A DNA stretch of 4,169 nt, taken from a virus (lineage: Duplodnaviria; Heunggongvirae; Uroviricota; Caudoviricetes). This document shows, piece by piece, positions 3,582-4,169 of this stretch. A program made the position numbers and the translations under genes. The stretch lies in IMG/VR virus record IMGVR_UViG_2541047428_000007; one strand, 5' to 3'. The notes below the pieces were generated by a model. It searched no databases, was not told the origin of the DNA, and worked only from the letters and a program-made list of their open reading frames with translations. Each line of letters starts with the position of its first letter. Positions within the stretch are counted from its first letter, which is position 1.

Positions 3582-3655
3582 GCCGGCCAGATGCATTTGC
3601 AGGCGTTGCTATAGCTATTGCTTTTCTAGTATATGTTATTTGTCGGTGGGGGTAA
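3578..3655 (+). CDS. Candidate micro-ORF encoding a 25-aa hydrophobic peptide (MSRPDAFAGVAIAIAFLVYVICRWG)
   Basis: ATG 3578 overlaps the upstream stop (ATGA) and is preceded by AGGGGGA (3565-3571, 6-nt spacer). One predicted TM-like stretch. Stop TAA 3653-3655. Too short for the ORF track. Confidence 0.35.
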   Translation: MSRPDAFAGVAIAIAFLVYVICRWG

Positions 3656-3690
3656 AAACGTTCGCCGGGATTCACACCAAGGGAGGGAAT

Positions 3691-3795
3691 ATGTCGGATG
3701 ATATTTCACTGGTAATGGAAGGCGCTCTGGCTGTTATTGCTGTTGTGGGTGTTTACTGCCTGGTTGTGTTTTTGATGGAGCGCCTGGGGAACTGA
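3691..3795 (+). CDS. Candidate micro-ORF encoding a 34-aa hydrophobic peptide (MSDDISLVMEGALAVIAVVGVYCLVVFLMERLGN)
   Basis: ATG 3691 preceded by AAGGGAGGG (3679-3687). Single TM-like helix between an acidic N-terminus and a charged C-terminus. Stop TGA 3793-3795. Too short for the ORF track. Confidence 0.45.
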   Translation: MSDDISLVMEGALAVIAVVGVYCLVVFLMERLGN

Positions 3796-3805
3796 ATTCA
3801 TTCCG

Positions 3806-3821
3806 TATGGGAATTCCCATA
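3806..3821. promoter_or_regulatory. 16-bp perfect palindrome TATGGGAATTCCCATA, candidate operator for a dimeric DNA-binding protein
   Basis: Read directly from the sequence: positions 3806-3821 are perfectly self-complementary. It sits between the stop of the 34-aa ORF and the putative -35 of the hok-locus promoter. Confidence 0.4.
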
Positions 3822-3835
3822 TCGGGCAAAACGGT

Positions 3836-3863
3836 TTGCTGTAAAGCGAGAGTTAAGTAGAAT
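3836..3863 (+). promoter_or_regulatory. Putative sigma70 promoter for the hok/mok transcript
   Basis: -35-like TTGCTG (3836-3841), 16-nt spacer, -10-like TAGAAT (3858-3863). Sits in the only sizeable non-coding gap, about 175 nt upstream of the hok ATG, consistent with the long leader of hok mRNAs. Sequence-only prediction. Confidence 0.3.
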
Positions 3864-3881
3864 TGCTGCGGGTGCTTGAGG

Positions 3882-3917
3882 CTGTCTGCCTCGGGCATGC
3901 CACCGTAAGGCAGACAG
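3882..3917 (+). promoter_or_regulatory. Stable stem-loop in the hok mRNA leader (10-bp stem, 16-nt loop)
   Basis: CTGTCTGCCT (3882-3891) pairs perfectly with AGGCAGACAG (3908-3917). The loop contains the 8-bp palindrome GGCATGCC (3894-3901). No downstream U-tract, so not a typical intrinsic terminator; more consistent with the folded leaders known for hok-family mRNAs. Confidence 0.4.
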
Positions 3918-3929
3918 AGAAAAGCCCCA

Positions 3930-3995
3930 GTTAACATTACGCGTCCTGCAAGACGCTTAACATTAATCTGAGGCCCAATCTATGCTTCACAAACG
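3930..3995 (-). ncRNA. sok: Putative Sok-like antisense RNA covering the mok translation-initiation region (approximate bounds)
   Basis: By analogy with characterised hok/sok loci, Sok is transcribed antisense across the mok SD/start. A weak candidate promoter on the minus strand is -35 TTGCCT (complement of 4020-4025) and -10 TAACCT (complement of 3997-4002), 17-nt spacer, which would put the TSS near 3990. The -10 is poor and the ends are not determinable from sequence. Confidence 0.2.
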
Positions 3996-4169
3996 TAGGT
4001 TAGCCTCTTACGCGCCGAAAGGCAAGGAGAAGCAGGTTATGAAGCAGCAAAAGGCGATGTTAATCGCCCTGATCGTCATCTGTTTAACCGTCATAGTGAC
4101 GGCACTGGTAACGAGGAAAGACCTCTGCGAGGTACGAATCCGAACCGGCCAGACGGAGGTCGCTGTCTT
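3982..4169 (+). CDS. mok: Mok-like reading frame: in-frame 19-codon N-terminal extension of hok (3' end off-window)
   Basis: ATG 3982 preceded by GAGG (3970-3973) and in frame with hok ATG 4039 (57 nt apart). Extension MLHKRRLASYAPKGKEKQV. As I recall it, E. coli mokC is likewise an in-frame N-terminal extension of hokC. Confidence 0.45.
   Translation, partial: MLHKRRLASYAPKGKEKQVMKQQKAMLIALIVICLTVIVTALVTRKDLCEVRIRTGQTEVAV
4039..4169 (+). CDS. hok: Hok/Gef-family type I toxin (small membrane peptide), 3' end truncated by the window
   Basis: ATG 4039 preceded by AAGGAGA (4024-4030, 8-nt spacer). Translation MKQQKAMLIALIVICLTVIVTALVTRKDLCEVRIRTGQTEVAV matches the Hok/Gef signature (TM helix, then ...RKDLCEV.IRTGQTEVAV) and is essentially identical over the visible part to my recollection of E. 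coli HokD (RelF) and Gef. A full Hok is about 50 aa; 43 codons are in the window. Confidence 0.88.
   Translation, partial: MKQQKAMLIALIVICLTVIVTALVTRKDLCEVRIRTGQTEVAV

What the first reader, a model, noticed from the sequence alone, without database searches (positions are those of the whole stretch)
3806..4169. Hok/Mok/Sok-type type I toxin-antitoxin locus in the prophage nin-like region (partial, runs off the window)
The last ORF encodes a Hok/Gef-family toxin. An in-frame upstream ATG (3982) with its own RBS gives a Mok-like 19-codon extension. A roughly 175-nt leader carries a predicted promoter (3836-3863), a 10-bp stem-loop (3882-3917) and a 9-bp direct repeat TTAACATTA (3931-3939 and 3957-3965) flanking a small GCGTC/GACGC hairpin. 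These are hallmarks of the hok mRNA architecture, in which leader folding and antisense Sok control mok/hok translation. Unlike K-12 hokD, which as I recall sits downstream of relBE, this copy has no relBE upstream and follows a run of phage accessory genes. It may therefore be a self-contained hok/sok module acting in prophage maintenance or abortive infection.
Basis: partly seen in the sequence, partly recalled or inferred. Interest (0 to 1): 0.55.

Follow-up and report, generated by a model that had tools for sequence, protein, structure and literature searches.

The report
Prophage hok/mok/sok toxin-antitoxin module
This is a complete, ordinary copy of the well-known hok/sok RNA-controlled toxin-antitoxin cassette carried by a lambda-like prophage of enterohaemorrhagic E. 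coli, nearly identical to the experimentally studied hokW-sokW locus of Shiga-toxin phage 933W/Sp5, so it is real but not new.

Summary
Window 3835-4169 is the 5' three-quarters of a self-contained hok/mok/sok type I toxin-antitoxin cassette. It runs to window-equivalent ~4290 in identical EHEC chromosomes.

Evidence:
- Rfam sok model: 114.9 bits (threshold 59).
- Pfam Hok/Gef: 82.9 bits.
- An intact 51-codon hok, identical to K-12 hokD.
- An in-frame 19-codon mok extension, as in annotated mokC and mokW.
- An antisense Sok gene (3990 to 3920/3914, minus strand) with its own promoter.
- Predicted RNA folds that reproduce the canonical tac/fbi to tac/ucb switch.

The "9-bp direct repeat" is really the two arms of the Sok stem-loop.

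The same cassette (92.5% identical) is annotated mokW/hokW/sokW in phage 933W. Takada et al. 2021 showed it to be a working type I TA that helps lysis and phage release after induction. Hok enrichment in prophages is also published.

Verdict: already known; low interest. One side observation deserves a look: a 20-nt hypervariable island at the Sok recognition tail.

The parts
3835..3863 (+). hok/mok mRNA promoter (-35 TTTGCT 3835-3840, 17-nt spacer, -10 TAGAAT 3858-3863)
   Evidence: Ends 6 nt before the inferred +1 at 3870. Aligns with TATAAT of K-12 hokC and TAGGAT of hokB. Conservation of the cassette among 62 distinct loci begins at about 3856. Not called by the generic scanner; inferred.
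3870..3881 (+). hok mRNA 5' end = tac (translational activator) element, GGGUGCUUGAGG
   Evidence: Rfam sok model position 1. Pairs with fbi (L001 12645-12657) in the full-length fold and with ucb in the truncated fold. Covaries with fbi between Escherichia and Photorhabdus.
3882..3917 (+). Leader hairpin 1 (10+3 bp) enclosed by the tac/ucb stem
   Evidence: Its 5' arm also forms the metastable hairpin with tac in the nascent 40-mer.
3922..3928 (+). ucb / anti-SD box (AAGCCCC)
   Evidence: Pairs with the mok SD in the full-length fold and with tac in the 3'-truncated fold. Zero entropy among 62 loci.
3914..3990 (-). Sok antisense RNA gene (5' end 3990; 3' end 3920 by SokW annotation or 3914 by SokC/SokB annotation; 71-77 nt)
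   Evidence: Annotated sokC and sokB of K-12 both map to 3990->3914. Annotated sokW of 933W (71 nt) maps to 3990->3920. Folds at -33.2 kcal/mol, z -5.3, followed by a GGGGCUUUUCU tail. SokW RNA was detected experimentally in the 92.5%-identical cassette (PMC8621323). No transcript data for this copy.
3926..3968 (-). Sok stem-loop; contains the two TTAACATTA copies and the GCGTC/GACGC inner hairpin
   Evidence: 92% of cells paired across 15 variants against 35-47% with slid partners. Only 2 compensatory pairs, a level reached by 21/500 shuffles. More stable on the - strand. It is an insertion relative to the Rfam consensus (16 nt in the Rfam alignment) and to SokC/SokB (18 and 20 alignment columns).
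3970..3974 (+). mok Shine-Dalgarno (GAGGC)
   Evidence: 8 nt before ATG 3982. Sequestered by ucb in the full-length fold, paired with dcb in the truncated fold. Invariant in 24 diverse sequences.
3976..3995 (.). Hypervariable island: inner stem and loop of the mok-start hairpin, which equals the 5' single-stranded tail of Sok
   Evidence: Mean entropy 0.58-0.87 bits against <=0.15 in neighbouring bins. 15 discrete alleles. Co-resident copies differ in 3 of 4 genomes.
3982..4169 (+). mok reading frame: 19 codons (MLHKRRLASYAPKGKEKQV), then in frame into hok; runs off the window
   Evidence: The mokC start and the mokW start map exactly to 3982. Annotated mokC and mokW are likewise in-frame 19-codon extensions sharing the hok stop. 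Translation.
3997..4025 (-). Sok promoter (-35 TTGCCT 4025-4020, 17-nt spacer, -10 TAACCT 4002-3997; +1 G at 3990)
   Evidence: Read from the sequence. The +1 is 7 nt after the -10 and coincides with the transferred SokC/SokB/SokW 5' ends. It adjoins dcb, as reported for R1, where the pSok mutation lies in dcb (PMC9841398). Not called by the scanner; inferred.
4003..4007 (+). dcb (GCCUC), partner of the mok SD in the processed mRNA
4024..4029 (+). hok Shine-Dalgarno (AAGGAG)
   Evidence: 9 nt before ATG 4039. Homology with K-12 hokD begins here.
4039..4169 (+). hok toxin ORF, first 43 complete codons of 51 (the window ends 2 nt into codon 44)
   Evidence: Pfam HOK_GEF 82.9 bits. PHROG 251 'MokW-like host killing' 114.7 bits. 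CDS identical to K-12 hokD. PGAP annotates hokD, WP_000813254.1. Outside the window, in window-equivalent coordinates: rest of the ORF to 4194, TadA motif TACG 4177-4180, 3'-UTR stem-loop, fbi 4244-4256, terminator 4263-4290.

Best explanation
The region is a complete hok/mok/sok type I toxin-antitoxin cassette of about 430 bp, of the hokD/hokW type. It is inserted as a self-contained unit in the early-right (nin-like) region of a lambdoid prophage integrated next to potC in EHEC.

Mechanism (the canonical hok/sok scheme, predicted here and not measured):
1. A constitutive promoter makes a ~420-nt mok-hok mRNA.
2. In the full-length mRNA the 5' end (tac) pairs with fbi near the 3' end, and ucb masks the mok ribosome-binding site. 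This form is stable and silent.
3. Slow 3' trimming removes fbi. tac then pairs with ucb, and the mok SD moves into a hairpin with dcb. This form can be translated, and it can also be bound by Sok.
4. Sok is a 71-77-nt unstable antisense RNA made from its own promoter on the opposite strand. Its 5' tail covers the mok start.
5. While Sok is being made, it blocks mok translation and, through translational coupling, hok. It also marks the duplex for RNase III.
6. When Sok synthesis stops, the stable mRNA pool is translated and the 51-aa Hok peptide depolarises the inner membrane.

Biological role (inferred by analogy with the 92.5%-identical hokW-sokW cassette). The most likely role is Hok production after RecA-dependent prophage induction, which advances lysis and increases phage release. 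Prophage addiction and exclusion of other phages are possible additional or alternative roles.
For: Family identity:
- Rfam RF01794 114.9 bits against a gathering score of 59.
- Pfam PF01848 82.9 bits against 22.
- PHROG 251.
- PGAP annotates hokD.

Completeness:
- Intact 51-codon ORF and terminator.
- mok start, Sok 5' end and Sok 3' end coincide with the annotated mokC/sokC, sokB and mokW/sokW.

RNA switch:
- Full-length fold, z -6.7, has tac 1-12/fbi 375-387 and ucb/mok-SD.
- Truncation to L001 12632 or 12640 gives tac/ucb and mok-SD/dcb.
- The nascent 40-mer forms the metastable tac hairpin.
- These match the published R1 scheme (PMC9841398).

Comparative evidence:
- tac/fbi covariation across genera.
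- Cassette boundaries at the promoter and the terminator, and strong internal conservation, in 62 distinct contexts.
- 71 of 80 viral contigs carry the full leader.

Function of the near-identical hokW-sokW: toxic HokW, neutralising SokW, SokW loss and HokW synthesis on induction, halved phage yield in the deletion (PMC8621323). HokD peptide is toxic on expression (bioRxiv 10.1101/2025.08.07.668861).
Against: - There are no expression, processing or toxicity data for this particular copy.
- Both promoters deviate from consensus, and a generic scanner missed them.
- Structural support is mostly thermodynamic prediction. Covariation is clear only for tac/fbi. It is weak for the Sok hairpin (2 pairs; 21/500 shuffles as good) and was not demonstrable for the inner mok-start stem.
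- One truncation end-point (L001 12626) gave tac/ucb but not mok-SD/dcb. Another (12644) kept a closed form. The true 3' processing site is unknown.
- Intact-looking chromosomal hok loci (hokA of E. coli C, hokB of K-12, hokC of ECOR24) failed to mediate post-segregational killing in earlier work (cited).
- This copy sits in the nin region, whereas hokW sits near the right end of 933W. It also differs from hokW in the recognition island and in the Hok C-terminus, so the role may not transfer.
Confidence: 0.9

Rival explanations
1. Silent relic. The cassette looks intact but is functionally inactive in its host, like the chromosomal hok loci of K-12. It persists only by hitch-hiking in the prophage.
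For: [quoted passage not shown] The promoters are non-consensus. EHEC genomes carry a median of 2 and up to 10 hok places, so any single copy may be dispensable.
Against: All regulatory elements are present and predicted to work together. The cassette is far more conserved than its flanks across 62 contexts, with a near-invariant toxin. There is no IS, frameshift or stop. The 92.5%-identical hokW-sokW is active from its native prophage position. R1 hok is toxic in single chromosomal copy (PMC9841398).
Confidence: 0.08
2. Prophage addiction. The main role is post-segregational killing of cells that lose the prophage. The stable hok mRNA outlives the unstable Sok after excision or loss.
For: This is the established role of hok/sok on plasmid R1 (PMC9841398). 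The 933W record's own note says 'prophage maintenance'. PPompW phage records call the homologue 'phage maintenance protein'. The RNA architecture needed for delayed killing (a stable, closed full-length mRNA) is predicted here.
Against: No experiment shows it for any prophage hok. The annotations are inferences by homology. Deleting hokW-sokW had no growth effect without induction, and its measured phenotype concerns induction. [quoted passage not shown]
Confidence: 0.25
3. Abortive infection or exclusion. A superinfecting lytic phage shuts off host transcription, Sok decays, and Hok kills the cell before the invader matures. This protects lysogen kin.
For: R1 hok/sok on a high-copy plasmid reduced T4 plating efficiency by 42% and plaque size by about 85% (Pecota & Wood 1996, as cited in PMC8621323, and PMC10305079). 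The location among prophage accessory genes and the PHROG 'moron' category fit a lysogen-benefit gene.
Against: The R1 effect was modest and obtained at high copy number. hok is not enriched near defence systems. Nothing has been tested for a single-copy prophage cassette.
Confidence: 0.15

Closest known systems
hokW/mokW/sokW of Shiga-toxin phage 933W and Sakai prophage Sp5 (GenBank AF125520, AP000422; Takada et al. 2021, PMC8621323)
   Same: 92.5% nucleotide identity over 94% of the cassette. Same promoter, tac, hairpin 1, ucb, extended Sok stem-loop with both TTAACATTA arms, mok SD, dcb, Sok promoter and fbi. mok is an in-frame 19-codon extension. Annotated SokW (71 nt) starts 9 nt inside mok, at the position equivalent to window 3990. 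Both lie in lambdoid prophages of EHEC.
   Different: Position in the phage genome: nin-like region here, near the right end next to late and accessory genes in 933W. The 20-nt recognition island differs (CCCAATCTATGCTTCACAAACG against CTCAATCCATGCTGAACACATG). The Hok C-terminus differs (…FTAYEPEE against the translated …FVDYESEK). 933W lacks the same terminator hairpin.
hokD (relF) of the Qin cryptic prophage, E. coli K-12
   Same: The toxin CDS is 100% identical. The hok SD, 3' UTR, fbi and terminator are nearly identical (3 mismatches). The downstream neighbours are of the same kind (DUF968/ydfU, Q-like). K-12 hokD mRNA is A-to-I edited at the TACG Tyr codon, which is also present here (PMC5630033).
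   Different: K-12 lacks everything 5' of -13: promoter, tac, ucb, Sok gene, mok start and dcb are replaced by relE. K-12 hokD is therefore a truncated derivative driven from relBE. This copy is the intact form. The relE-hok junction is the rarer arrangement (2 of 80 viral and 3 of 53 genomic loci).
hokC(gef)/mokC/sokC and hokB/mokB/sokB of E. coli K-12
   Same: Same order of elements. The leaders are alignable from +1. mokC is also an in-frame 19-codon extension. The Sok ends map to the same columns.
   Different: About 82% (HokC-type) or lower protein identity. Their Sok RNAs are 59 and 57 nt and lack the 18- and 20-nt stem extension. mokB is out of frame with hokB. K-12 hokC has IS186 beside it.
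hok/mok/sok (parB) of plasmid R1, the prototype
   Same: Same regulatory logic and named elements: tac/fbi, ucb, dcb, 19 mok codons before hok, Sok promoter overlapping dcb, 3' processing (PMC9841398; predicted here). Same Pfam family.
   Different: The toxin is distantly related (HokW, a close relative of this Hok, is 44% identical to R1 Hok). R1 mok (70 aa against a 52-aa Hok) is a separate overlapping frame, whereas here mok reads in frame into hok. R1 is plasmid-borne with a plasmid-stabilising role.

Membership tests
Hok/Gef toxin family (Pfam PF01848) | Small (~50 aa) hydrophobic peptide matching the HOK_GEF profile above the gathering score | tested here: met
   82.9 bits against a cut-off of 22, profile 1-42/42. 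PHROG 251, 114.7 bits. 51 aa, intact stop.
hok/sok type I TA locus | Leader RNA matching the curated covariance model (Rfam RF01794) | tested here: met
   114.9 bits against a gathering score of 59, full model 1-157, + strand 3870-4044. The model matches the sense (hok leader) strand.
hok/sok type I TA locus | mok reading frame that starts upstream of hok, has its own SD and overlaps the hok start (translational coupling) | tested here: met
   ATG 3982 with GAGG 8 nt upstream, 19 codons, reads into hok. It coincides with the annotated mokC and mokW starts. Coupling itself was not tested.
hok/sok type I TA locus | cis-encoded antisense Sok gene with its own promoter, overlapping the mok translation start, ending in a stem-loop and U-run | tested here: met
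   By position: -35/-10 at 4025-3997, +1 at 3990. Stem-loop -33.2 kcal/mol, then GGGGCUUUUCU. Matches annotated SokC, SokB and SokW. Transcription was not measured.
hok/sok type I TA locus | Long-range tac/fbi pairing that closes the full-length mRNA | tested here: met
   12 bp with one bulge in the MFE and centroid structures, z -6.7. Compensatory changes between Escherichia and Photorhabdus.
hok/sok type I TA locus | Alternative pairings ucb/mok-SD (closed) and tac/ucb + mok-SD/dcb (open) after 3' truncation | tested here: met
   Predicted for truncations ending at L001 12632 and 12640. Partly so for 12626, and not for 12644. The Rfam consensus structure shows the open form. This is prediction only.
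hok/sok type I TA locus | Sok is unstable, hok mRNA is stable and 3'-processed; the duplex is cleaved by RNase III | not testable with these tools
   Shown for R1 and in part for hokW-sokW, not for this copy.
hok/sok type I TA locus | Toxicity of Hok and its neutralisation by cognate Sok | not testable with these tools
   The HokD peptide (identical sequence) is reported toxic on expression. HokW/SokW was demonstrated.
relBE-hokD (relBEF) operon arrangement of K-12 | relB and relE immediately upstream, with hok lacking its own leader | tested here: not met
   There is no relE similarity upstream. A full leader is present instead.

The most novel reading that the evidence does not exclude
The cassette is otherwise almost invariant across dozens of prophages. 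The 20 nt that form Sok's single-stranded recognition tail and the loop of its target hairpin (3976-3995) exist as at least 15 discrete alleles, and copies sharing a genome usually carry different alleles.

The most novel reading the evidence allows is that this island is under diversifying selection. Each prophage's Sok would then neutralise only its own hok mRNA. Multiple hok/sok cassettes in one EHEC genome would be insulated from each other, so loss or induction of one prophage would still trigger its own toxin. An incoming related phage could not disarm a resident cassette.

An equally simple alternative is relaxed constraint. The Mok amino-acid sequence is reported not to matter, and loops drift freely.
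Probability: 0.3. Interest if true: 0.45.

Novelty: already known. Interest (0 to 1): 0.15.

Why it matters
It matters little as a discovery. The cassette type has been annotated in phage 933W, was characterised experimentally in 2021, and is covered by a 2025-26 census reporting hok in thousands of prophages and phages.

Its practical value is for annotation. RefSeq marks only the hokD CDS here and omits mok and sok, and the name hokD hides the fact that this copy, unlike K-12's, has its full regulatory region. It also shows directly that K-12 hokD is the 3' remnant of a cassette like this one.

If the recognition-tail island turns out to be a specificity determinant, EHEC with up to 10 copies would be a natural system for studying insulation among paralogous type I TA modules.

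Tried and rejected
- **Generic promoter/terminator scan.** It found the hok terminator but neither the hok nor the Sok promoter. Its one promoter-like hit (+ strand, window 3957-3986, TTAACA/TATGCT) is within chance expectation (0.5 expected) and has no homology support, so I rejected it.
- **RNAalifold on 24 diverse mok-start hairpins.** It recovered only the invariant GAGGC/GCCUC stem, because indels scramble the inner stem in the MAFFT alignment. Inner-stem covariation therefore remains unproven, although each sequence folds into it individually.
- **Covariation test on the Sok hairpin.** Pairing is conserved, but the covariation score is no better than shuffles. The hairpin is too conserved in the extended type to be informative.
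- **Other Rfam matches.** ceN48 snoRNA (E 0.97) and rsmX (E 0.21) are noise. isrK (27 bits against 50) is sub-threshold and driven by the terminator.
- **First extraction regex.** It found nothing. It was a pattern error, corrected.
- **The TTAACATTA pair as a true direct-repeat element (transposon scar or binding-site pair).** Rejected in favour of hairpin arms, because of the strand asymmetry of folding energy and the position inside annotated SokW.
- **Listing all hok copies within one EHEC genome.** The similarity search reports one place per record, so the co-residence test rests on only four genomes.
Full report
**1. What is in the sequence**

- A hok-like ORF starts at ATG 4039.
- An in-frame ATG lies at 3982, 19 codons upstream, with GAGG 8 nt before it.
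- Promoter-like hexamers are TTTGCT (3835-3840) and TAGAAT (3858-3863).
- A 10+3-bp stem-loop lies at 3882-3917.
- An exact 9-bp direct repeat TTAACATTA lies at 3931-3939 and 3957-3965, flanking GCGTC/GACGC.

The window ends inside the ORF. Window 3600-4169 is 100% identical to many EHEC chromosomes. I used one of them, NZ_AP018808.1, fetched as L001, to read on (window x = L001 x + 8401). The ORF closes after 51 codons. It is followed by a 3' UTR and a strong intrinsic terminator (AACCCGCTTCGGCGGGTT + T-run, L001 12664-12691). There is no frameshift or premature stop.

**2. Family identity**

- The Rfam covariance model RF01794 ("sok") matches 3870-4044 over its full length: 114.9 bits against a gathering score of 59, E about 1e-26. 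The match is on the + strand and ends at the hok AUG. The model therefore describes the hok mRNA leader, inside which Sok is encoded antisense.
- The peptide matches Pfam HOK_GEF at 82.9 bits (cut-off 22) and PHROG 251, "MokW-like host killing", at 114.7 bits.
- PGAP annotates the CDS as hokD, but annotates no mok and no sok.

**3. Genomic context**

The locus lies in a lambdoid prophage integrated beside potC. The gene order is: integrase, excisionase, exonuclease, dicB, repressor/cro-like, ydaT, DnaT-like and P-like replication genes, seven short genes of unknown function, hok, then DUF968, RusA, DUF1133, tRNAs, holin, lysozyme and terminase (PHROG matches).

**4. Comparison with K-12 hokD**

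K-12 does carry relB-relE-hokD in the Qin prophage. Aligned with this locus, identity is essentially complete from 13 nt before the hok ATG (AGGAGAAGCAGG) to the terminator T-run, including a 100% identical CDS. Homology vanishes 5' of that point, where K-12 has relE. K-12 hokD is thus the 3' remnant of a cassette like this one. This copy retains the promoter, leader, mok start and sok.

Among relatives collected through the Hok protein:

| Source | Full leader | Partial leader | relE upstream | Neither |
|---|---|---|---|---|
| 80 viral contigs | 71 | 7 | 2 | 0 |
| 53 genomic loci | 22 | 25 | 3 | 3 |

**5. mok and Sok by transfer from annotated loci**

- K-12 mokC shares its stop with hokC and starts 19 codons upstream, so it is in frame. 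933W mokW has the same relation to hokW. mokB is out of frame.
- In pairwise and three-way alignments, the mokC and mokW starts fall exactly on window 3982. The 5' ends of annotated SokC, SokB and SokW all fall on window 3990 (minus strand).
- The 3' ends fall on 3914 (SokC, SokB) or 3920 (SokW, 71 nt).
- Seven nucleotides upstream of 3990 on the minus strand lies TAACCT (4002-3997). Seventeen nucleotides beyond that lies TTGCCT (4025-4020). This promoter adjoins the GCCUC box, as reported for R1, where the Sok-promoter mutation lies in dcb (PMC9841398).
- Neither promoter reaches the threshold of the generic scanner. Both rest on position and homology.

**6. The direct repeat reinterpreted**

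- On the minus strand, 3991-3914 folds at -33.2 kcal/mol (z -5.3) into one long stem-loop followed by GGGGCUUUUCU. The same interval on the plus strand reaches only -19.2 kcal/mol.
- The two TTAACATTA copies are the arms of that stem. TTAA is self-complementary, and the central positions are G.U pairs in Sok but C.A mismatches in the hok strand.
- Relative to the Rfam consensus (16 nt) and to SokC/SokB (18 and 20 alignment columns), the inner GCGTC…GACGC hairpin is an insertion. That accounts for a Sok of 71-77 nt against 57-59 nt.
- Across 15 variants, 92% of cells pair, against 35-47% with slid partners. Only two pairs show compensatory change, a level reached by 21 of 500 shuffles. Covariation is therefore weak.
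- Loci with an identical Hok protein can carry one of two shorter, unrelated stem-loops at this position.

**7. The RNA switch**

The 421-nt full-length transcript (L001 12271-12691) folds at -174.9 kcal/mol (z -6.7).
- *Full length:* nucleotides 1-12 (GGGUGCUUGAGG, tac) pair with 375-387 (CCUCAACGCACCC, fbi). The ucb box (55-59) pairs with the mok SD (101-105).
- *Truncated:* removing the 3' end up to L001 12632 or 12640 switches the prediction. tac 1-8 pairs with ucb 53-59, and the mok SD 101-105 pairs with dcb 134-138.
- *Nascent:* the 40-mer forms a hairpin of tac with the sequence just downstream.

These are the three conformations described for R1 hok mRNA (PMC9841398). Two other trial end-points behaved less cleanly. 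At 12626 the SD/dcb stem was lost, and at 12644 the RNA stayed closed. The real processing site is unknown.

The tac/fbi pairing covaries. Escherichia has GGGUGC…GAGG with CCUC…GCACCC. Photorhabdus has GGGCGC…GAGA with UCUC…GCGCCC. The outer SD/dcb stem is invariant in 24 diverse sequences. RNAalifold could not align the inner stem, although all 43 distinct variants fold into it individually.

**8. What is already known**

- Phage 933W (AF125520) and VT2-Sakai (AP000422) annotate mokW, hokW and sokW on a cassette 92.5% identical over 94% of this one.
- Takada et al. 2021 (PMC8621323) reported the following:
  - HokW is toxic.
  - SokW from its own promoter neutralises it, partly dependent on RNase III and Hfq.
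  - Both RNAs are present in the lysogen.
  - SokW disappears after mitomycin C.
  - HokW then appears in the inner membrane in a RecA-dependent way, about 1 h before the endolysin.
  - Deleting the locus delays growth arrest by about 40 min and halves Sp5 release.
- A 2025-26 survey (bioRxiv 10.1101/2025.08.07.668861) counted Hok in 3,852 prophages and 2,501 phages and found about four-fold enrichment in prophages. It reported HokD toxic and stated that the function in prophages remains to be studied. It deliberately did not analyse mok, Sok or mRNA elements.
- Bar-Yaacov et al. 2017 (PMC5630033) showed that K-12 hokD mRNA is A-to-I edited at a TACG Tyr codon. That codon (Tyr47) is present here just beyond the window (window-equivalent 4177-4180) and is predicted to be mostly unpaired.

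**9. Mechanism and role**

The molecular mechanism given under Best explanation is the canonical one. Every sequence element it requires is present, and the folds agree. The steps themselves (transcription, processing, Sok decay, coupling, toxicity) are inferred, not shown, for this copy.

For the biological role, the only direct evidence on a near-identical prophage cassette favours assistance of lysis and release upon induction. The T4 effect of R1 hok/sok was modest and obtained at high copy number.

**10. Side observation**

Across 62 distinct loci of this type, conservation begins at about 3856 and ends at about 4285. Flank entropy is above 1.3 bits, which marks a discrete mobile cassette. 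Within the cassette, entropy is at most 0.15 bits around one island, 3976-3995, where it reaches 0.58-0.87 bits. That island is the inner part of the mok-start hairpin and equals the 5' tail of Sok.

It occurs as 15 discrete alleles. Co-resident copies differ in three of the four genomes I could examine. The fourth pair is identical over the whole 485-nt locus and may be a duplicate. This could reflect selection for Sok/hok specificity among co-resident copies, or simply relaxed constraint. The sample is too small to decide, and I found no discussion of the point in the papers read.

**11. Verdict**

The kind of system is already known, and the gene is already annotated in RefSeq. Interest is low.

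Noticed in passing
window 3976-3995 (both strands): A hypervariable island sits inside an otherwise near-invariant cassette: 0.58-0.87 bits against <=0.15 nearby, 15 discrete alleles. It coincides with Sok's predicted 5' tail, the loop of the mok-start hairpin and mok codons 1-5. Co-resident copies differed in 3 of 4 genomes.
   Followed up: partly
window 3926-3968 and the equivalent position in L075, L086, L088, L116, L126, L136, L016-L023: Loci encoding an identical or near-identical Hok carry one of three unrelated Sok stem-loops at the same position: the extended TTAACATTA type, a CACTTCGATTTATAGTCGGGTG type, and the hokC-type CGGGTTGATGGTAAAATATCACTCG. This suggests cassette-like exchange of the Sok terminator hairpin.
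   Followed up: partly
L001 12578-12581 (window-equivalent 4177-4180, just beyond the window): The Tyr47 codon of hok lies in the TadA recognition motif TACG and is predicted mostly unpaired (P(paired) 0.08-0.39). K-12 hokD, which has an identical CDS, is known to be A-to-I edited there, recoding Tyr to Cys (PMC5630033).
   Followed up: partly
window 3691-3795 (+): A 34-codon ORF (MSDDISLVMEGALAVIAVVGVYCLVVFLMERLGN) has a strong SD (AGGGAGGG) and one hydrophobic helix. PGAP annotates it as a hypothetical protein. It has no Pfam or PHROG match and lies outside the conserved hok cassette.
   Followed up: partly
window 3806-3821: A perfect 16-bp palindrome TATGGGAA/TTCCCATA lies between the small ORF and the hok promoter, in the variable flank just outside the conserved cassette. 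Its purpose is unknown.
   Followed up: no
window 3870-4044 (+): The Rfam family named 'sok antitoxin' (RF01794) matches the sense strand, from the hok mRNA +1 to the hok AUG, and not the antisense Sok RNA. Strand calls from this model should not be read as the Sok gene's strand.
   Followed up: yes
window 3983-3992 and 4037-4046: A 10-nt inverted repeat, 90% complementary (TGCTTCACAA / TTATGAAGCA), links this allele's mok codons 1-4 with the hok start codon region. Other alleles of the island do not obviously keep it, so it may be chance.
   Followed up: no
L001 12604-12685 (hok 3' UTR): A sub-threshold Rfam match to isrK, a Salmonella prophage sRNA (27.2 bits against 50, E 0.0014). It covers the 3'-UTR stem-loop and the terminator and is probably driven by generic hairpin-plus-terminator features.
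   Followed up: no
L029 (Kluyvera sp. CHPC 1.2972), L045, L008, L089, L093: The relE-hok junction typical of K-12 also occurs in a Kluyvera genome (relE 96.9% identical, next to a Hok only 70% identical to HokD) and in two viral contigs. The relBE-hok fusion is therefore not a K-12 peculiarity.
   Followed up: no
L019, L024, L057; hit H42: Near-identical E. coli-type hok cassettes occur on very short contigs labelled Acinetobacter idrijaensis and Xanthomonas pisi, on a 3-kb contig of a Candidatus Scatousia MAG, and in a record named Actinobacillus phage vB_Apl-pPE4. These most likely reflect contamination or mislabelling rather than true hosts.
   Followed up: no
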